A DNA stretch of 64,000 nt from IMG/VR virus record IMGVR_UViG_3300005471_000011, positions 40,108 to 104,107 of that record; one strand, 5' to 3'. Position numbers and translations under genes: made by a program. This document shows positions 42,369-49,215 of the stretch, in pieces; position 1 is the stretch's first letter; each line of letters starts with the position of its first letter. The DNA comes from a virus. Under the pieces are notes generated by a model. That model was not told the DNA's origin. It made no database searches and was given only the letters and a program-made list of their open reading frames with translations.

Positions 42369-43187
42369 ATGAACGCACGAGGCGTCCTGTATTACAACAT
42401 CGGCGACCGCTACGCCGTGCCGCTGGCGGTGTCCCTGATGACGCTGCGCGACTGGTACGCGGGTCCGGTGGCAATCGTCACGGACATGGCTGGTATCCCG
42501 TGGATTCGCAAGATGCTCAAGATTCCCGGCTTGCTGCCACTGGATATCATCCCCATGCTGCCGGAAAGCTCCTCCGAGCAGTGGCGCTATCTTGCCAAGC
42601 TCGAACTGCCGGAGCTATCACCGTTCGCCTCCACGGTCATGCTGGACGCGGACACGCTGGTCGTCGGGTCCATCGAGGAGTTGTGGCCCGACATGAAATC
42701 CGGGGAAGTGGTCCTGACAAATCGTTCCAACGGCGCCACGGCTCACGTCAAGATGCGGCTGCGATGCCAGCAGTGGATTGATATCGCTCCGCTGCGCGCG
42801 AGGCGCGTGCGTTCCCAGCGGTTCAAGGTTGCCGCGATCAACACGGGCATCATGGCTTGGTCGCGCAACAGCTCGCCTTTCGTGCGCGAATGGTACCGGC
42901 TGGCGAGGCTCCGTCCGATCCACAGTTGCGACGAGATGGCGGCACAGCTCACCTATCCCGACTTCCCGCACAGGATTCTGGATTCCCGCTACAATGCCAA
43001 CGTGACCTACGACCGGGAGGACGTGCGAATCTGGCACGGGCCGCGGTCACAGTTCTGGAAGGCAGGCGGGCGCGGCAGGGCGCTGTGGACGCCTTATTTC
43101 CGGCGAGAACTGCCATTGCTGCGAGAGCTGCTGCCAACGGCGGCGTGGCTTGGTGGCTGGCTGGAAAGGGAAACAGGGAAAGCATGA
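42369..43187 (+). CDS. GT8-like glycosyltransferase (paralogue of 35389)
   Basis: SPFASTVMLDADTLV, INTGI, DEMAAQL, IWH. Confidence 0.75.
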   Translation: MNARGVLYYNIGDRYAVPLAVSLMTLRDWYAGPVAIVTDMAGIPWIRKMLKIPGLLPLDIIPMLPESSSEQWRYLAKLELPELSPFASTVMLDADTLVVGSIEELWPDMKSGEVVLTNRSNGATAHVKMRLRCQQWIDIAPLRARRVRSQRFKVAAINTGIMAWSRNSSPFVREWYRLARLRPIHSCDEMAAQLTYPDFPHRILDSRYNANVTYDREDVRIWHGPRSQFWKAGGRGRALWTPYFRRELPLLRELLPTAAWLGGWLERETGKA

Positions 43188-43792
43188 GCGGCACCTCGGC
43201 GCAGCTTACGGCGGTCACGTGCGTATATTGGATGCACCGCTACAACTTTGAGCCGCGAACGATTCTGAACATCGGTATTGGCAAGACGTGTCCTGAGTTG
43301 GCGATCTGGCAATGGCTGCTGCCAAACGCGCAAATCCTTGGCGTTGATCCACGCTGGAGCCCGCGCGGCAACTGGAGCAGGGGCGGTGCCAAGCAGCTCA
43401 AGGTTGGCGTCGGGGACGGGACCAAGCCCACGGCGACTTACTGCGGCGATTGCCGGTCGGTCAAGTGCGAAAACCCAGCGCACACCGCGCACAAGTCCAC
43501 CGCGACCATGACGACGATTGACCAGATCGTCGCGGACGAGAAACTCCAGCCGCCGTTTTTTATCTGGATGGACATTGACGGCGGGGAGATCGACGCGATC
43601 CACGGTGCCAAGCTGACGCTGCCGCACGCGGGATACATGAACGTGGAGTTCTGCGACCACAAGCAGATTCCGGAGCACCGCGAGCAGTTGCACTTGCTGC
43701 TAAACGCTCACAGCTTCGTCCTCATGTACGATCACAAGGCCGTGTCTCAGGACAGGCTTTATCGCAACCGCCGCTTCAAGATGCCAAAATGA
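43184..43792 (+). CDS. FkbM-like methyltransferase
   Basis: ILNIGIG, GVDP, TTID, WMDIDGGE...I.GA. Confidence 0.7.
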   Translation: MSGTSAQLTAVTCVYWMHRYNFEPRTILNIGIGKTCPELAIWQWLLPNAQILGVDPRWSPRGNWSRGGAKQLKVGVGDGTKPTATYCGDCRSVKCENPAHTAHKSTATMTTIDQIVADEKLQPPFFIWMDIDGGEIDAIHGAKLTLPHAGYMNVEFCDHKQIPEHREQLHLLLNAHSFVLMYDHKAVSQDRLYRNRRFKMPK

Positions 43793-43980
43793 TCAAGGAC
43801 GTGCTGACTCCCAAGGATGTTGCGAAGCTGACTGGCTTCAGCCAGAGCACCATCAAGAAATGGATGGATCGTGGCTTGCTTAAGGGCTGGCGCATTCCCG
43901 GCTCGAACCACCGACGGTTCGACCGCGAGACCGTGCTGGCGTTCCTGCGCAGCAACGGGATTCCGGAACCTGCGCCATGA
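43789..43980 (+). CDS. excisionase-like (HTH_17) DNA-binding protein
   Basis: LTPKDVAKLTGFSQSTIKKWMDRGLLKGWRIPGSNHRRF...FLRSNGIP. Confidence 0.8.
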   Translation: MIKDVLTPKDVAKLTGFSQSTIKKWMDRGLLKGWRIPGSNHRRFDRETVLAFLRSNGIPEPAP

Positions 43981-44489
43981 TCCGCCTGGGGTTCACCCGC
44001 TACGAGTTGCCGGAGCTGATCGACCTGCAAGGCTACAAGCGCGCCGTCGAGGTCGGAATCAACCTTGGCCAGTTCAGCTATCATCTGCTCAAGTACTCCA
44101 AGCTGGAGCTGCTTGTCAGCGTGGACAGTTACCCAGGCAAGTACCGCAAGGCGATGCCGAGCGCCAAAAACTATTTGGCGCCGTTCGGGGCGCGGTCGCA
44201 GTTGTTGCGGCGATCCAGCGTGGACGCGGCAGCGACCGTCGCTAACGGATTCTTTGACTTCGTGTATATTGACGCGGCGCACGACTATGCCAGCGTTCAT
44301 GCTGACATTGAGGCATGGGCGAGGACGGTTCGTCCGGGTGGGCTGCTCGCTGGCCACGACTACACGCCGGCGCACGCGGGCGTGATGCAGGCGGTGGACG
44401 AGTTCACGTCCAATTCAAACTGGACGCTTTTTTCGACGCGCGAGCTGTGGGCGAGTTGGATGTTCTTTGTGCCGGAGTCGGCTAGTTGA
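43977..44489 (+). CDS. class I SAM methyltransferase (Methyltransf_24-like)
   Basis: VEVG..G.FS, SVD, FDFVYIDAAHDY, GGLLAGHDY. Confidence 0.85.
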   Translation: MIRLGFTRYELPELIDLQGYKRAVEVGINLGQFSYHLLKYSKLELLVSVDSYPGKYRKAMPSAKNYLAPFGARSQLLRRSSVDAAATVANGFFDFVYIDAAHDYASVHADIEAWARTVRPGGLLAGHDYTPAHAGVMQAVDEFTSNSNWTLFSTRELWASWMFFVPESAS

Positions 44490-44514
44490 CACGGCACGCA
44501 GCACTATGTAAAAT
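44486..44514 (+). promoter_or_regulatory. near-consensus sigma70-type promoter for the RAMP/array operon
   Basis: TTGACA-17 bp-TAAAAT with TG immediately before the -10. Confidence 0.75.
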
Positions 44515-44655
44515 GCCAGCCGTGGCTACCAACCATCTCGCAAACATACGCGCCCTCTGCGCGAGGTTTTCTCTTGGTTGGTAGCCTGGGTTAGCCCGCG
44601 CAGGGGGCGTTCCTTCTGCGGGGCATGGCAACTGTTTTTCGAGGAGCCTCAGGTT

Positions 44656-45447
44656 ATGACGACTGCAACTGTTGGAAAGAATCGGTTGAACGGAGACACG
44701 GCGCTTGATGGCGACATCCAGGTCGCCGAGGATCAGGCGCGAGCCAACGCCAAGGAGAAGGGCAAGAAAGAGACGATCCAGGTCAAGCCGCTGCGGCTCA
44801 AGGTGCTTGAGGTCATCATCATCGGCACCGCGCCGCTGCTCCAGTTGCGTTTCTCCGCCAAGGCAATCGCCAAGATGCGGGCGACGCAGGAAGCCGGGGG
44901 GCAGGCCAAGTCCAAGAAGAACCGCGAGGCACGGGACTTCCACGCGGATTACCTGGGTGCCTTTCATCTGTTCGCTGACGGCACTCCCGGATTCCCGGCA
45001 TCGGCGATCCGCGCGGCGTGCATCAGCGCGTGCCGCACGTGCAATTTCAAGATGACGCTGGCGAAGCTTTCCATTTTCACGCTGGCGGACGGCTTGGACA
45101 TCGTGGACGGCATCCCGCTGGTCAAGGTGTTCGGCACGCCGGAGGAGACAGTAATGCCTGTTCGAAATCAAACTGGCGTTACGGATTTGCGGGCGCGTCC
45201 GATGTTCAAAGCCTGGAAGGCAAAAGTTCGAATCCGCTTCGATGAAGACCAGTTTTCTGCGCAAGATGCGTACAACCTTCTCTGCCGCGCCGGCGCTCAG
45301 GTCGGTATCGGAGAAGGACGGCCGGACTCACGCGAGTCGGCCGGCATGGGGCTGGGCACTTTCCGCGTGATCCTGCCGGACGATGAAGCGAGCGACGAGG
45401 AGGCGTTGCAGATTCCTTGGAAGGCGAAGGCGGTGGTTGAAGCCTAG
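44656..45447 (+). CDS. Cas7/RAMP-like RRM protein (candidate RNA-guided effector)
   Basis: GAGGAG RBS; LEVIIIGTAPLL (RAMP first strand); PGFPASAIRAAC (compare Cas7/Csm3 P.IPGSSLKG); C-terminal glycine-rich loop VGIGEGRP...GMGLGTFRV; array starts at its stop codon. Confidence 0.7.
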   Translation: MTTATVGKNRLNGDTALDGDIQVAEDQARANAKEKGKKETIQVKPLRLKVLEVIIIGTAPLLQLRFSAKAIAKMRATQEAGGQAKSKKNREARDFHADYLGAFHLFADGTPGFPASAIRAACISACRTCNFKMTLAKLSIFTLADGLDIVDGIPLVKVFGTPEETVMPVRNQTGVTDLRARPMFKAWKAKVRIRFDEDQFSAQDAYNLLCRAGAQVGIGEGRPDSRESAGMGLGTFRVILPDDEASDEEALQIPWKAKAVVEA

Positions 45448-46367
45448 GCTCGTTTGTCGCGGATAGTTTAGGAGTGCCTTGTCCCGCATTGTTCGGGCGA
45501 GGCAGGCATGGTAAGTCGCGGCATGCCTAGTCGCTGTTTGGCAGGCATGTCCCGACGTGTTAGGGCAAGCTGCGGCACCGCGGGCTGTGTCACGGCGCGG
45601 CAGGCATGTCCCGTTGGTCCGCTTCGGTCGGTATGGCACGGAGAGGTACGGCAGGCTTGACTAGTCCCGGAATGGTCGGTCGGTCATGGCAGGCATTACC
45701 CGTCACGCTTCGGTATGGCAAGACGCGGCAGGCAAGATTCGTCTCGGCAGGATTCGTCTCGGTTGGTTCTGGAATGGCATGTCAAGGTCTGGCAGGCCCG
45801 TCGGGTCTGGCCGTTGCTGGGCACGGTTTGCACGCGGTATGGCAGGCATGGCTGAGCGAGTCCCGTTGTGTTCCGGTCCGGCAGGAGCGGAAGGTTTCGG
45901 CGGGGTGTGGTAGGTCTCGGCAGGCTAGTATTGGAGCGTTTCGGATTGGTGAGGCACGGTTTCGCAGGCGAGCCAAGGCATGTCAGGTCCGGACGATGAG
46001 CGGCTCGGCAGGCATGGAACGGCAAGTTGAGTTTGGACTAGTCGCGGTTCGGCAGGCGTGGAGCGTTCGGTTCGACATGTTAGGGTGCGGATCGTATGGT
46101 CCGCTACGGCAGGCACGTCGGGTCAGGACTGTGCGGAGCGAGTTCGGGCACGGTCAGACGCGGCAGGCCAGCCATCGCATGGCGCGTTTGGTCCTTGCAA
46201 GGCTATGCAGGTCCCGGCAGGCAGCGCGGGTCATGGTAAGGCAAGGCATGGTTCGTCGTCGCAGGCGAGGTTCGTCAAGTCCCGGTGGTAAGCGATTCGT
46301 CGCGGAGAGGTTTGGCAGGCGTGTCACGGAGAGTTCAGCAGTGGGTTTGTCAAGGCAGGCACGGTTT
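45447..46367 (+). repeat. array 1: GGCA-anchored pentamer (GDY-NN) repeat array, putative guide-RNA array
   Basis: 19 (G/C)GCAGG anchors at 45501,45540,45599,45650,45688,45727,45791,45841,45880,45919,45963,46007,46051,46108,46162,46216,46260,46314,46354; 13 of 18 spacings equal 4+5n. Confidence 0.9.
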
Positions 46368-46396
46368 TATTTCTTTCACAATCAGGAGATCGTTTT

Positions 46397-46900
46397 ATGG
46401 TGACCGAGATCAATGATGCAGTACGCAATGAAATGCTGGCGCTGCTCGATGACGACGGGCTGCTCAAGCCTGAAGCCGTCGTTGCGGCGGCAGCCAATGA
46501 AGCCAGCAGCATGCACAAGTTCTTCACTTGGGACGATGCTAAGGCAGCCGCCAAGTGCCGGCTGGAAGAGGCGCGTGCTCTGATCCGCAACGTCGAATGC
46601 CAGTACGATGAAAACTGGCTCAAGGGTCCGGTCCCGGCGTTCGTCAGCTTGGCGAATGATCGTGGACGCGAGGGCGGCGGCTATCGCTCCACGCCAGCGG
46701 TGCTGACCAACAATCAGCTTCGCGCGGAGCTGATCGCTACCGCCAAGAAGGAACTGGAGTCCTGGGCGCGACGGCACAAGGTGCTTCGCGGCTATGTGCT
46801 CAACGTGCTGGTCGCCAGCGGGATTGAGCCGACTGGCATTTTTTCAGAGTCCGAGATTGGCTTGACAGTTACAGGAGGAGGCGATCAGGAAGCGGCATAG
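46397..46900 (+). CDS. accessory protein between the arrays
   Basis: AGGAG RBS; G.LKPEAVV.AA....SSMH.FFTWDD.KAA...RLEEAR.LIR motif; bounded by both arrays. Confidence 0.75.
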   Translation: MVTEINDAVRNEMLALLDDDGLLKPEAVVAAAANEASSMHKFFTWDDAKAAAKCRLEEARALIRNVECQYDENWLKGPVPAFVSLANDRGREGGGYRSTPAVLTNNQLRAELIATAKKELESWARRHKVLRGYVLNVLVASGIEPTGIFSESEIGLTVTGGGDQEAA

Positions 46901-47870
46901 CAGGTTAGGCACGGATCGTTATGACTGGCCCCGACTAGGTTTGTCATGCGCGGCTTGGCAGGCGAGATTTGCCCTGTTCAGGATCGTCGTGTCGCGGCGG
47001 CGCAGGCAGCGAGGGTCTGGTCGATGCTCGGCAAGGTCCGTCACGGCAGGCCGGGCTAGGCAAGTCTGATTCTGACACGGCAGTTCCCGGCAGTCGCGGT
47101 TAGTCTTGCTGCGACCAGTTAGGGCAAGGCAGGCACGGCCCGTGCCTGGATCGTGCCATAACGAACCGCGTCGGAACACGAACCGCGGCAGGCCAGACTG
47201 GTCAGGGGACGGCTCGAAAGGCACGGCACGATCCGTCATGGTGTGGCAGGCACGGCTAGTCAGGACTGCGCACGATCCGTTTTGGTCCGGCAGGCGCGAC
47301 GCGACGTGATCTGTCTGGGAACGTCGTGACGAGGTCTGGCAGGTACGTCTGGTTGGGGCGCGATCCGTCATGGTATGGCGCGGCAGGCTAGGCACGGCAG
47401 GACGCGGCAGGGCGCGACGCGGATGATCCCGGCAGGCAAGGTGTGTCGAGGCGAGGTTGATCGCGGTAAGATCGTGGCAGGCGAGGCATGTCCGGTCAGC
47501 GACTGGCATGCTGAGGCGGGTCGCGGCAGGGCGGCTTGGCAGGCGTGTTTTGGTCAGCCTCGGTGTGGCTTGCTTTGGCAGGCGCGGTTAGACTGGTTTC
47601 GTCGCGACTAGGCACGGCAGGCACGTCTTGACTAGGCTGGGAGCTGTAGGTCGCGTTTTGGCTGGGCAGGCAGGTCTCTGCATGGTCCGGACGGAAAGGC
47701 TCGGCTCGGCAGGCACGCAATGTCACGGCACTGCGAGGTCAGCTATGGCGCGGAAGGGCAGGCATGTCACGAACCGTCAGCGCCCGGTTTGGCGAGTCGG
47801 GTCGCGGCAGGTTAGTCCAGTCAAGGACAGGTCAGGCATGCTTCGGTTCGGCAGGCAAGGCGTGGCATGA
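46899..47870 (+). repeat. array 2: GGCA-anchored pentamer (GDY-NN) repeat array, putative guide-RNA array
   Basis: 21 anchors (some variant) at 46899,46957,47001,47045,47089,47128,47187,47245,47289,47338,47382,47431,47476,47538,47577,47616,47665,47708,47757,47806,47850; 15 of 20 spacings equal 4+5n. Confidence 0.9.
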
Positions 47871-47894
47871 AAGTCCTGCCGATGAAAGGAAATC

Positions 47895-48740
47895 ATGAAC
47901 TGGAAATCTCCGCCGGCAGACCAGTCTAAAGTCTGGCTGAACAAGTCTTTAGAAATTCAGATATTACTCGCGTGCAACTGGTCGTGTGTTAGTTGCGATC
48001 AGTTCAGCCAGTTCTCTAAGTTCGCCTGGGTCAAGAAGGGCACGATGAGTTTGGAGCAGATCGCGCACTTCTGCGCCGAGATGCGCGCCGGCAATTTCTA
48101 CTTCGGTCGGATTCGGCTGGTCGGAGGTGAGCCGACGATCCATCCTCGCTTCGGAGAGATCGTCGGCATGCTTCGCGAGGAGTTGATCGACAACGGCCAC
48201 GTAGCGGTCCTGGAGGTTGTCACCAACGGTTCGCACCCGGAGAAGATCAAGCCGGTGGCGCACCTGATCAACCGCGTGCGCGTCAGTGATGATAACGACA
48301 AGCAAAAACATCACACGGCGAACCTGATTGCCACGCCGGCATCACTTGGCTACCAAGGAAAGCGGTGCAACCAGCCGGAGCATTGCGGCTGGTCTTTGAG
48401 CTATTATGGGTTTGCGCCTTGCAGCTCTGCCGGTGGAATCATGCGGCTGCGCGACCTGATGTCAGAGCACCAGCGAACCAGCCTTCCGCAGGTCAAAGGC
48501 ACCGAGGCCAACTGGCCGAAGTTGCAGAATCTTTGCGACCAGTGCTACCATGCATTGCGTAGCGAGGACAAAATCAAGTCCGGCACGTCGGACCCATCCA
48601 GGAACATGCCCAGCGAAGAAGCTGCAGTCCACGTCAACAAGTGGGCGGGCGGTCACAAGCCCGACTGGAAAATCTACGGGCAGGAAGCCAATGAAAATCC
48701 CGCTCATGGCGACGCGCTACGACCTGCCGGCGCTGTTTGA
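47895..48740 (+). CDS. radical SAM protein
   Basis: CNWSCVSC (CxxxCxxC), GGEPTIHP, VTNG; C-terminal Cys cluster. Confidence 0.85.
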   Translation: MNWKSPPADQSKVWLNKSLEIQILLACNWSCVSCDQFSQFSKFAWVKKGTMSLEQIAHFCAEMRAGNFYFGRIRLVGGEPTIHPRFGEIVGMLREELIDNGHVAVLEVVTNGSHPEKIKPVAHLINRVRVSDDNDKQKHHTANLIATPASLGYQGKRCNQPEHCGWSLSYYGFAPCSSAGGIMRLRDLMSEHQRTSLPQVKGTEANWPKLQNLCDQCYHALRSEDKIKSGTSDPSRNMPSEEAAVHVNKWAGGHKPDWKIYGQEANENPAHGDALRPAGAV

Positions 48741-49215
48741 CGCGCTGAAGTACCGGGTCGGCGCGGAGATTGGCGTTGACCACGGCTATTTCTCACGGCA
48801 CCTGCTGGCATCGTCCAGGCTAGATCGTCTGTACTCCGTGGATTCCTGGCAGGGTAAGTTCGGCAAGTGCATCGCGGACGCCAAGCATTACCTCGCGGAG
48901 TTCGGGCATCGGTCGGAGATCATCCACCGCAGCGCGTCCCAGGCAGCGGCATCGCTGTCCGACAACAACGTGCGGCTGGACTTCGCGTATATTGACGCTT
49001 CCCATCGGGAGCAATCGGTAGCATTGGACATGCAGGACTGGGCACCGTTGGTCAAGCCGGGCGGGTGCCTGTGCGGGCATGACTACTGCGACCAGCCTAT
49101 GACTGGGGTAATCCAGGCGGTGGACGGATTCGCGGCGGAGCGTGGGTTGCCGGTGTTCGTCACTTCCGAGCCGTGGGCGTCATGGCTAATCTTTATGCCG
49201 GAGCAAGCAGCATGA
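48691..49215 (+). CDS. class I SAM methyltransferase (Methyltransf_24-like; paralogue of 43977)
   Basis: AEIGV..G.FS, SVDSW, LDFAYIDASH, GG.LCGHDY. Confidence 0.85.
   Translation: MKIPLMATRYDLPALFDALKYRVGAEIGVDHGYFSRHLLASSRLDRLYSVDSWQGKFGKCIADAKHYLAEFGHRSEIIHRSASQAAASLSDNNVRLDFAYIDASHREQSVALDMQDWAPLVKPGGCLCGHDYCDQPMTGVIQAVDGFAAERGLPVFVTSEPWASWLIFMPEQAA

What the first reader, a model, noticed from the sequence alone, without database searches (positions are those of the whole stretch)
44486..47880. Candidate phage RNA-guided system: lone Cas7/RAMP-like gene, accessory gene and two non-CRISPR pentamer arrays
Seen in the sequence: a near-consensus promoter (TTGACA-17-TAAAAT), a 263-aa ORF (44656-45447), array 1 starting at its stop codon, a 167-aa ORF, and array 2 starting at that stop codon. 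Together the arrays hold about 39 units. Established: the first ORF has RAMP/Cas7 hallmarks (N-terminal IIGTAPLL strand, PGFPASAIR resembling P.IPGSSLKG, terminal G-rich loop GIGEGRP..GMGLGTFRV). Cas7 proteins polymerise on RNA with a fixed nucleotide step per subunit. Inference: one subunit binds each 5-nt unit, gripping the conserved triplet and displaying the variable dinucleotide, so each anchor-to-anchor unit is a separate guide. No cas1/2/3/5/6/8/10 or obvious partner nuclease lies in the locus, which suggests silencing or binding (for example against competing phages or host genes) rather than cleavage. I recall RAMP plus GGY/NN-repeat loci being described recently under the name VIPR. 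I cannot verify that here, so novelty must be checked. The degenerate triplets and the two-array, accessory-gene layout in a probable planctomycete phage may still be a new variant.
Basis: partly seen in the sequence, partly recalled or inferred. Interest (0 to 1): 0.95.

Follow-up and report, generated by a model that had tools for sequence, protein, structure and literature searches.

The report
Phage VIPR locus with staggered guide arrays
A 104-kb soil phage carries a member of the recently published VIPR family: a small Cas7-like protein, an accessory gene and two long arrays of 5-base repeats that encode about 40 gapped guide RNAs. One of these guides exactly matches a conserved DNA-methylase gene of other, mostly integrated, phages.

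Summary
Window 44486-47880 contains a near-consensus promoter, a 263-aa gene, a 0.9-kb 5-nt-periodic array, a 167-aa gene and a second 1-kb array. These arrays are the only 5-nt-periodic DNA in the 64 kb.

The first gene is a Vipr protein. It aligns along its full length with SUSP1 Vipr (hhalign 95.7%, E 1e-8; SUSP1 Vipr is its only PDB sequence hit) and has a Csm3/Cas7-type predicted fold.

The arrays are G-[G/T]-Y-N-N pentamers. A 4-nt GGCA unit cuts them into about 40 blocks of 7-12 pentamers. This matches the "staggered" vrRNA array in the 2026 VIPR preprints.

The same gene-plus-array layout recurs in 77 of 80 IMG/VR relatives, in 102 of 109 further loci and in cyanophage Cy-LDV1. It is a new member of a known kind, not a new variant.

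One result goes beyond identification. Under the published 1-nt-skip rule, the block at 46166-46219 matches 27 viral contigs exactly (20 of 20 bases). All matches lie antisense to one motif (GLYFSQAIIW) of a ParB-N6/N4 DNA methyltransferase, with skipped bases at codon wobble positions. Six other guides gave no match and one gave a single match in a 43% G+C contig. The phage's own methyltransferase differs at that motif.

Expression, processing and silencing are inferred, not shown.

The parts
44486..44514 (+). Sigma-70-type promoter-like site (TTGACA, 17 nt, TAAAAT) in front of the operon
   Evidence: 11 of 12 consensus matches. Two such sites were found in the 3.9-kb region, against 0.6 expected from shuffles. 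Function was not tested.
44515..44655 (+). Structured 5' leader. It has a 12-bp outer hairpin enclosing a G+C-rich hairpin with a U-tract (terminator-like, 44549-44563), then a second G+C-rich hairpin, then GAGGAG before the ATG.
   Evidence: RNA fold -68.1 kcal/mol against -52.5 +/- 4.2 for shuffles, z = -3.7. Terminator-like site. No Rfam family. Role unknown.
44656..45447 (+). vipr gene: 263-aa stand-alone RAMP (Cas7-like) protein. It has a roughly 47-aa N-terminal extension and an acidic C-terminal tail that SUSP1 Vipr lacks.
   Evidence: The only PDB sequence hit is SUSP1 Vipr: E 0.0026 for the single sequence, 2.6e-6 for the profile. hhalign against phiSUSP1 Vipr: 95.7%, E 9.7e-9, 173 columns spanning SUSP1 residues 2-191 of 195. 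AlphaFold2 model has mean pLDDT 79.7. Foldseek hits above E 1e-3 are all Csm3/Cmr4/Cas7-family chains, best E 3e-5. VIA Z 8.6-6.7 over 119-148 residues. PHROG 4652, 5e-18. 5187 database relatives.
45452..46372 (+). vrRNA array 1: about 185 units of G-[G/T]-Y-N-N, cut into about 20 blocks by 4-nt GGCA units (staggered array). No tail and no ribozyme between blocks.
   Evidence: No Rfam match.
46166..46219 (+). One guide block: 10 pentamers plus GGCA, variable dinucleotides CA AT AT GC TG CT AA TA AG CC. It has an identifiable natural target.
   Evidence: The 1-nt-skip pattern has 27 exact matches in IMG/VR. All are antisense to the peptide GLYFSQAII(W), with skipped bases at wobble positions. 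The target genes are ParB_N + N6_N4_Mtase. Exact matches also occur in 4 of 401 genomes of the Planctomycetales MAG's phylum and in 0 of 401 of Bradyrhizobium's phylum.
46397..46900 (+). Accessory gene (vap-like): 167 aa, N-terminal winged-helix-like domain followed by helices.
   Evidence: A homologue lies next to vipr, on the same strand, in 51 of 80 IMG/VR relatives. PHROG 15946, 8e-19. AlphaFold2 pLDDT 90.9. Only weak winged-helix matches: Foldseek E 0.2, VIA Z 6.3-4.0 over residues 1-107. No similarity to SUSP1 vap1. No Pfam or PADLOC hit.
46899..47877 (+). vrRNA array 2: about 200 units, about 20-25 blocks, same grammar as array 1.

Best explanation
This is a VIPR (Viral Interference Programmable Repeat) locus of a 104-kb tailed phage from a rhizosphere metagenome.

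Shown here:
- The 263-aa protein is a homologue of the structurally solved SUSP1 Vipr and has a Cas7-type predicted fold.
- Two G-rich arrays on the same strand consist of G-[G/T]-Y-N-N pentamers.
- A 4-nt GGCA unit shifts the pentamer register by -1 about 40 times and divides the arrays into blocks of 7-12 pentamers. This is the published 'staggered' array, in which neighbouring vrRNAs overlap by one G.
- One block matches, under the published 1-nt-skip rule, an invariant motif of a ParB-DNA methyltransferase gene in 27 viral contigs. Four of the five records I checked are classed as proviruses.
- The phage's own methyltransferase is not matched.

Inferred from the SUSP1 work:
- The operon is transcribed from the promoter at 44486.
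- Vipr polymerises on the RNA with one protomer per pentamer. It sequesters the G-K-Y triplet and presents each NN pair.
- Each filament binds double-stranded DNA that reads NN-x-NN-x and represses transcription there.
- The winged-helix-like accessory protein assists.

My own inference is that the GGCA register slip ends one filament and starts the next. This would define guide boundaries without tails or ribozymes. The biological role would be to silence genes of competing or resident phages in the same host.
For: Protein:
- SUSP1 Vipr is the only PDB sequence hit.
- Full-length hhalign to phiSUSP1 Vipr, 95.7%, E 9.7e-9.
- Thumb Arg (SUSP1 R138 = R181) and G-loop residues (D177 = E220, R179 = R222) are kept and invariant in the clade.
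- Cas7/Csm3 fold matches.

Arrays:
- 5-nt periodicity occurs only in the two arrays.
- Unbiased logo G, G/T, Y, N, N.
- 5k+4 anchor spacing.

Association:
- 77 of 80 IMG/VR relatives and 102 of 109 further loci have a periodic stretch in the fetched locus; the 77 lie beside or within about 1 kb of the gene.
- GGCA is the commonest 4-mer junction across relatives, 315 of 1023.
- Cyanophage Cy-LDV1 has the same vipr-array-ORF-array layout.

Phage context:
- Head protease, tape measure protein and DnaB.
- The tools treat the record as a virus.

Target:
- 27 exact 20-of-20 matches for one guide. Six other guides (18-22 specified bases) gave no match and one gave a singleton.
- All 27 are in one codon-phased motif of ParB_N + N6_N4_Mtase genes.
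- The match stops at both junctions.
- The phage's own homologue has GLKVRHVLIW at that place and there is no self-match.

Published mechanism.
Against: - Nothing here shows transcription, processing, RNA binding or repression. No RNA run holds the locus.
- Only one of 31 guides of 7 or more pentamers has an identifiable target. The other guides do not converge on the target-bearing proviruses.
- The Trp that stacks on the second G in SUSP1 (W178) is Gly here. The aligned position of H17 is Leu. RNA recognition may therefore differ in detail.
- The accessory protein is unrelated in sequence to SUSP1 vap1, and its winged-helix assignment rests on scores in the noise range.
- According to the preprint, staggered arrays were not among the architectures confirmed by small-RNA sequencing.
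Confidence: 0.88

Rival explanations
1. It is a VIPR locus, but each roughly 1-kb array acts as one long unprocessed RNA scaffold carrying many consecutive filaments. It is not cut into about 40 separate vrRNAs. The blocks are recognition units but not physical molecules.
For: There are no tails, ribozymes or Rfam elements between blocks. Only one strong promoter lies upstream. The preprint reports no small-RNA confirmation for staggered arrays.
Against: The preprint's figure legend describes boundaries of 'individual processed vrRNAs' for staggered arrays. All experimentally studied vrRNAs are discrete RNAs of about 100 nt.
Confidence: 0.2
2. It is a VIPR locus that destroys its targets rather than silencing them, by recruiting a nuclease. 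This would be like the nuclease-associated VIPR types III and V.
For: Published VIPR types III-V carry nuclease or helicase vap genes. The accessory protein's function is unproven.
Against: Neither the accessory protein nor the flanking genes contain a nuclease or helicase domain. The flanking genes are methyltransferases, an HTH protein and a radical SAM enzyme. The nuclease types are reported to be enriched in cellular defence islands, not in phages.
Confidence: 0.08
3. The arrays are not guide RNAs. They are either translated repetitive protein (an ORF at 45606-46403 is open through array 1) or DNA-level repeats such as binding sites for the accessory protein.
For: A 265-aa ORF spans array 1. 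The accessory protein looks like a DNA binder.
Against: The period is 5, not 3, and the lag-3 coding signal is absent. The register slips by one base about 40 times, which would scramble any repeat protein. G-richness is strand-specific and matches the gene strand. The adjacent protein is homologous to an RNA-binding Vipr. One block matches a foreign gene in the gapped code.
Confidence: 0.02
4. It is an orphan Cas7 from a degraded type III or type I CRISPR-Cas system.
For: The best structural matches are Csm3, Cmr4 and Cas7-11.
Against: Sequence homology is to Vipr, not to any Cas7 in the PDB. There is no Pfam or PADLOC Cas model hit. There are no repeat-spacer arrays and no cas genes among the neighbours.
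Confidence: 0.02

Closest known systems
VIPR systems (Vipr + vap + vrRNA), bioRxiv 10.64898/2026.04.26.720920; structures in 10.64898/2026.04.26.720927; phage-satellite biology in 10.64898/2026.10.15.759431
   Same: A stand-alone minimal RAMP homologous to SUSP1 Vipr. One accessory gene. Intergenic pentamer arrays with a conserved triplet and variable NN. Phage-borne. No cas genes. A natural target that fits the 1-nt-skip rule, with skipped bases at wobble positions of a conserved gene in other phages and proviruses. No self-target.
   Different: Compared with the studied type II (SUSP1, P. fulva):
- about 40 guides instead of 4;
- blocks of 7-12 pentamers instead of 9-16;
- no 3' tail or pseudoknot;
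- blocks abut through a 4-nt GGCA unit;
- position 2 of the triplet is G or T;
- the G-loop Trp is replaced by Gly and the G-loop is 8 residues longer;
- a 47-aa N-terminal extension;
- an accessory protein unrelated to vap1.

I could not assign one of the seven published types, because the type tables and figures are not held.
'Staggered' vrRNA arrays (fig. S18 of 10.64898/2026.04.26.720920)
   Same: Neighbouring guides overlap by one nucleotide. Here this reads ...GGCA[G]GCNN..., so spacing is 5k+4 and the end of one guide is the start of the next.
   Different: I could only compare with the figure legend. The preprint's example locus and its Vipr clade are not available to me. At about 2 kb, the arrays here are among the largest of about 190 relatives examined.
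Cyanophage Cy-LDV1 (BK059895.1) genes g34/g33
   Same: Closest relative in a named phage, 54% identity. Same vipr-array-ORF-array layout with GGCNN pentamers and GGCAGGC junctions.
   Different: Arrays of only about 250 nt each, cleaner GGC triplets, and all genes annotated as hypothetical. It is a 47-kb temperate-type genome and the locus lies near cI and excisionase genes.
CRISPR-Cas class 1 backbone subunits (Csm3, Cmr4, Cas7)
   Same: RRM core, thumb hairpin and glycine-rich loop. Polymerises on guide RNA with a fixed step, and the thumb interrupts base pairing periodically.
   Different: Step of 5 nt with 2 of 5 bases read, instead of 6 nt with 5 of 6 read. No CRISPR repeats, no Cas5/6/8/10/11 partners and no adaptation genes. 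No sequence similarity is detectable to Cas7 models.

Membership tests
VIPR | Vipr protein: minimal RAMP with RRM core, thumb and glycine-rich loop, homologous to described Vipr proteins | tested here: met
   hhalign to phiSUSP1 Vipr 95.7%, E 9.7e-9, nearly full length. Profile against PDB gives only SUSP1 Vipr, E 2.6e-6. Fold matches are all Cas7-family, Foldseek E 3e-5 and VIA Z up to 8.6. Model features: beta-hairpin 154-196 and Gly-rich loop 217-234.
VIPR | Adjacent non-coding tandem pentamers with a conserved GGY-type triplet alternating with hypervariable NN | tested here: met
   Logo G 83%, G/T 49/30%, C/T 59/30%, N, N, with all 16 dinucleotides used. The arrays flank the genes on the same strand. 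Position 2 is more degenerate than canonical GGY. Related consensus forms are published.
VIPR | Gene-array association conserved across homologues | tested here: met
   77 of 80 IMG/VR loci have a periodic stretch beside or within about 1 kb of the gene. The three exceptions have little or no sequence (about 100-490 nt) after the gene. 102 of 109 further loci hold a periodic stretch; its distance from the gene was not checked. Cy-LDV1 shows the same layout.
VIPR | Minimal locus: vipr plus one accessory (vap) gene, no cas genes, no CRISPR array | tested here: met
   An accessory-gene homologue lies beside vipr in 51 of 80 relatives. Neighbours are methyltransferases, an HTH protein, a glycosyltransferase-like protein and a radical SAM enzyme. 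No PADLOC Cas hit. Only the neighbourhood was screened for cas genes, not the whole 104 kb.
VIPR | Mostly viral or proviral location | tested here: met
   Single 104,107-bp contig treated as a virus record. PHROG hits to head maturation protease, tape measure protein and DnaB helicase.
VIPR | Targets recognised by the 1-nt-skip rule (NN-x-NN-x), typically conserved genes of competing mobile elements, with no self-targets | tested here: met
   Met for one guide only: 27 exact codon-phased matches in ParB-methyltransferase genes. No self-match above shuffled controls. The other guides have no identified target.
VIPR | vrRNAs are expressed, co-purify with Vipr, and direct repression of matching DNA | not testable with these tools
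   No RNA run holds the locus. This needs small-RNA sequencing, pull-down and reporter assays.
VIPR type II (SUSP1 / P. fulva clade) | vap1 accessory gene and roughly 100-nt vrRNAs that end in a conserved structured 3' tail | tested here: not met
   The accessory-protein profile against SUSP1 vap1 gives hhalign probability 0.2%. Blocks abut with no tail. No structured-RNA family was found.
CRISPR-Cas class 1 (Cas7/Csm3/Cmr4) | Repeat-spacer CRISPR array and partner cas genes; Cas7 sequence family membership | tested here: not met
   No Cas Pfam or PADLOC model hit. No repeat-spacer array. No cas genes among the neighbours. The similarity is at fold level only.

The most novel reading that the evidence does not exclude
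The tail-less staggered arrays of this large Vipr clade may be 'register-coded'. A single GGCA 4-mer shifts the pentamer frame by -1. That alone would end one Vipr filament and start the next, packing about 40 guides into 2 kb with no processing signal. This clade's Vipr lacks the Trp that stacks on the second G and tolerates G or T there. At least one guide may be used to shut off a resident provirus's ParB-DNA methyltransferase, a DNA-protection or epigenetic gene, in hosts that may be Planctomycetota. This would add a new target class to VIPR-mediated phage-phage conflict.
Probability: 0.3. Interest if true: 0.55.

Novelty: new member of a known kind. Interest (0 to 1): 0.35.

Why it matters
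The locus adds no new kind of system. VIPR, its gapped code, staggered arrays and non-canonical triplets were all published in 2026.

Its value is as a well-defined natural example from an uncultured soil phage.
- It carries one of the largest guide sets seen among about 190 relatives.
- It shows clear block boundaries.
- It gives a computational target assignment outside the experimentally studied type II clade.

The target match extends the 1-nt-skip, wobble-phased rule to a staggered-array clade. It shows that one anchor-to-anchor block is the unit of recognition. It also points to a phage DNA methyltransferase as a target.

The locus would be a good substrate for testing how staggered arrays are processed. 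The preprint did not confirm this experimentally.

Tried and rejected
- Tandem Repeats Finder does not detect the arrays, only three short local duplications.
- Rfam, permissive threshold: no hammerhead or any other family in 44300-48100.
- Pfam and PADLOC: nothing for either protein.
The closest relatives (66-74% identity) could therefore not be fetched. The metagenome scan returned nothing above 59% identity.
- No RNA holder was listed among sequencing runs. Laying two rhizosphere DNA runs only re-found the same phage with no variants.
- Self-targeting: no signal under 0-3-nt skips against shuffled guides in the 104-kb genome.
- Local target searches in 143 and then 223 related loci gave no excess over shuffles or over other skip rules. 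The recurring 13-of-14 hits of the 7-pentamer guide at 45884 fall on unrelated genes that share an L-T-P-x-L/Q-A peptide. I treat them as chance.
- Exact IMG/VR scans:
  - Guides at 45544, 46264, 46112, 47293 and 47761 gave 0 hits.
  - The guide at 47712 gave one hit in a 43% G+C contig. I treat it as chance.
- No other guide converges on five whole target-bearing provirus records or on the 24 target genes tested.
- The accessory-protein fold gave only weak winged-helix matches and remains inconclusive.
- The exact target pattern was not found in 401 genomes of Bradyrhizobium's phylum.
- The published VIPR type (I-VII) could not be assigned, because no supplementary files are held.

Full report
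**What is in the sequence**

The region reads as one + strand operon.
- A promoter-like TTGACA-17-TAAAAT lies at 44486-44514, with 11 of 12 consensus matches.
- A 140-nt leader follows. It folds much better than shuffles (-68.1 kcal/mol, z = -3.7).
- A 263-aa gene runs from 44656 to 45447.
- A non-coding stretch runs to 46396.
- A 167-aa gene runs from 46397 to 46900.
- A second non-coding stretch runs to about 47880.

Both non-coding stretches are G-rich on the + strand (38% G, 24-26% C). They have a strong 5-nt same-base autocorrelation of 0.39-0.42, against 0.24-0.25 in the genes. They lack the lag-3 signal of coding DNA. A sliding periodicity score passes 0.1 only in these two stretches of the 64-kb window. 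The background is 0.00 +/- 0.027 with a maximum of 0.094.

**Array grammar**

GGCAGG occurs 40 times in the arrays on the + strand. The only - strand copy in this span (47880) lies just past the end of array 2. There are 43 copies in the remaining 61.5 kb. Spacings are mostly 39, 44, 49, 54 or 59 nt, that is 5k+4. Each block is therefore n pentamers plus one 4-nt unit, GGCA. Equivalently, the last pentamer GGCAG shares its final G with the first pentamer of the next block.

I phased pentamers only by the anchors, in the 20 blocks without an internal slip. The 148 internal pentamers read:

| Position | Composition |
|---|---|
| 1 | G 83% |
| 2 | G 49%, T 30% |
| 3 | C 59%, T 30% |
| 4 and 5 | near-uniform (0.03 and 0.06 bits), all 16 dinucleotides present |

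A dynamic-programming segmentation gives 336 pentamers, 49 four-mers (mostly GGCA) and 5 irregular units. It yields 35 blocks of 5 or more pentamers, typically 7-12. The first pentamer after a junction is usually GGCAY or GGCGY, and the pentamer before GGCA usually ends in C. There are no tails, ribozymes or known RNA families between blocks.

**The protein**

There is no Pfam or PADLOC hit. Against all PDB sequences the only hit is 'SUSP1 Vipr protein' (36pp): E 0.0026 for the single sequence and 2.6e-6 for a 28-sequence profile.

I then located the vipr-vap1 pair in the phiSUSP1 record (KT454805). The profile aligns with the SUSP1 protein over 173 columns, covering SUSP1 residues 2-191 of 195 (hhalign 95.7%, E 9.7e-9).

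The AlphaFold2 model has mean pLDDT 79.7. Every Foldseek hit above E 1e-3 is a Csm3, Cmr4, Cas7-11 or type VII Cas7 chain, with a best E of 3e-5. VIA gives Z 8.6-6.7 over 119-148 residues. Those Z values alone are middling. Combined with the sequence homology they are sufficient.

I compared the RNA-contact residues reported for SUSP1 with the alignment:

| SUSP1 residue | This protein | Status |
|---|---|---|
| R138 (thumb) | R181 | kept, invariant in the clade |
| D177 | E220 | conservative change, invariant |
| R179 | R222 | kept, invariant |
| W178 (stacks on the second G) | G221 | changed, invariant Gly |
| H17 | L64 | changed |

The G-loop is 8 residues longer. The protein also has a roughly 47-aa N-terminal extension that is partly conserved in its closest relatives.

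**Is the association general?**

The family is very large: 5187 proteins at E <= 1e-3.
- At least 552 IMG/VR contigs encode a relative. Of the best 80 loci, 77 have a 5-nt-periodic stretch beside or within about 1 kb of the gene. The three exceptions have little or no sequence (about 100-490 nt) after the gene.
- Of 109 further loci of at least 2.5 kb, from GTDB genomes and metagenomes, 102 have such a stretch somewhere in the fetched locus.
- A homologue of the 167-aa gene lies next to vipr on the same strand in 51 of 80 loci. Typical layouts are vipr-array-vap-array or vipr-vap-array.
- GGCA is the commonest 4-mer junction across relatives, 315 of 1023.
- The closest named phage is cyanophage Cy-LDV1 at 54% identity. 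It shows the same layout with GGCAGGC junctions.
- Mycobacterium and Gordonia phages carry relatives at about 30% identity.

The arrays here, about 2 kb by the periodicity measure, are among the largest. Only L004/L005, L051 and L069 are comparable.

**Comparison with the literature**

VIPR was published in 2026.
- The discovery preprint describes Vipr as an ancestral RAMP. It describes a two-gene vipr-vap locus and vrRNAs of alternating GGY/NN. [quoted passage not shown] It shows transcriptional silencing of competing phages and defines seven types. It lists array architectures that include 'staggered arrays with overlapping vrRNAs', whose neighbours overlap by 1 nt.
- The cryo-EM preprint shows one protomer per repeat, with the GGY triplet sequestered and the NN pair presented.
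- A later preprint reports VIPR-like arrays with non-canonical or degenerate triplets.

The 5k+4 spacing found here is exactly the 1-nt overlap of the staggered architecture. According to the preprint, only the ribozyme-interspersed and single-vrRNA architectures were confirmed by small-RNA sequencing. Processing of staggered arrays therefore remains an inference.

**The accessory protein**

The model is confident (pLDDT 90.9). It matches known folds only weakly. Foldseek gives forkhead and RepA WH1 domains at E 0.2. VIA gives Z 6.3-4.0 over residues 1-107, almost all to winged-helix nucleic-acid binders. That fits the published statement that several vap types are predicted DNA binders, but it is inconclusive. 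The protein is unrelated in sequence to SUSP1 vap1, so the locus is not a type II system. I could not assign a type because the type tables are not held.

**Targets**

I converted each block to its NN string and searched with the 1-nt-skip rule.
- There is no self-target in the 104-kb genome beyond shuffled controls or other skip rules. This agrees with the published absence of self-targeting.
- There is no excess in 223 related loci.

I then scanned IMG/VR for exact matches with eight guides:

| Guide (start) | Specified bases | Hits |
|---|---|---|
| 45544 | 22 | 0 |
| 46264 | 20 | 0 |
| 46112 | 20 | 0 |
| 47293 | 18 | 0 |
| 47761 | 18 | 0 |
| 47712 | 18 | 1, in a 43% G+C contig, probably chance |
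| 46166 | 20 | 27 contigs |

All 27 matches for block 46166-46219 lie antisense to the same peptide, G-L-Y-F-S-Q-A-I-I-(W). Every skipped base falls on a codon wobble position. The skipped bases vary among contigs while all 20 specified bases are fixed. The genes encode ParB_N + N6_N4_Mtase DNA methyltransferases.

The match covers exactly the ten pentamers of the block. It does not continue into the GGCA unit or the neighbouring blocks. This supports the block as the unit of recognition.

The phage has its own ParB-methyltransferase at genome 27256-28602, about 30% identical, with GLKVRHVLIW at that place. It is not matched.

Four of the five target-bearing IMG/VR records I checked are classed as proviruses. 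They have 63-69% G+C, against about 61% measured for this VIPR locus.

The exact pattern also occurs in the same motif in 4 of 401 genomes of the phylum of a Planctomycetales MAG. It occurs in 0 of 401 genomes of the phylum of Bradyrhizobium. The backwards control gave 0 in both.

Caveats:
- The 27 hits are homologous, so they count as one event.
- Its weight comes from the codon phasing, the invariance of exactly the specified positions, and the near-empty results for the other seven patterns.
- No other guide converges on these proviruses or genes.

**Phage context**

The genome held is one 104,107-bp contig that the tools treat as a virus record. The window encodes a head maturation protease, a tape measure protein, DNA methyltransferases and a DnaB helicase. 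The locus is found in two rhizosphere metagenomes, one of which is probably the source.

**Verdict**

The system is an ordinary member of a large, already published family, carrying the published staggered array architecture. It is rich in guides but not otherwise unusual.

Three points go slightly beyond the papers I could read:
- the target assignment;
- the evidence that block boundaries are recognition boundaries;
- the clade-specific changes in the G-loop.

Expression, processing and silencing remain untested.

This scan had noted the same array grammar on this stretch before (notes e1-6050853 and e1-6050867).

Noticed in passing
window 44515-44655: The 5' leader of the vipr operon is strongly structured (z = -3.7). 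It contains a terminator-like G+C hairpin with a U-tract inside a 12-bp outer stem. This could be an attenuator or a processing element. No Rfam family matches.
   Followed up: partly
window 47895-48740 and neighbours 43977-44489, 48550-49215, 42369-43187, 43789-43980: The VIPR locus sits inside a cluster of modification-type genes. These are a radical SAM enzyme with weak hits to prokaryotic viperin (pVip) models (E 1e-9), two paralogous Methyltransf_24 genes, a glycosyltransferase-like gene and an HTH_17/MerR-like small gene.
   Followed up: no
genome C1:27256-28602 (outside the window, about 11.5 kb before its start): This is the phage's own ParB-N6/N4 DNA methyltransferase, 449 aa. It carries a run of six Met residues just before the motif that corresponds to the targeted GLYFSQAIIW. 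Here the motif reads GLKVRHVLIW, so the phage's own guide does not match it.
   Followed up: partly
window 45731-45762: A 15-nt unit (GGCAAGATTCGTCTC) is duplicated in tandem inside array 1. This hints that arrays can grow or change by local duplication.
   Followed up: no
window 45606-46403: A 265-aa ORF is open through array 1, and similar ORFs run through arrays in related loci. Gene callers tend to over-extend the accessory gene into the array.
   Followed up: partly
L079:1901-2700 (IMGVR_UViG_3300036833_000142): The array of a related locus has T at pentamer position 2 in 66% of units (consensus GTCNN). The clade therefore tolerates G or T at the position that SUSP1 Vipr reads with a Trp.
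   Followed up: no
phage records NC_051648 (Donkeykong), NC_031262 (Brocalys), NC_031249 (UmaThurman) and others: 25 Mycobacterium and 5 Gordonia phage records encode relatives of this Vipr at about 30% identity. All are annotated as hypothetical proteins. I did not check them for arrays.
   Followed up: no
L228:4171-6423: One of the targeted ParB-methyltransferase genes (751 aa) has a Hint-domain hit in the middle of the methyltransferase domain. This suggests an intein insertion.
   Followed up: no
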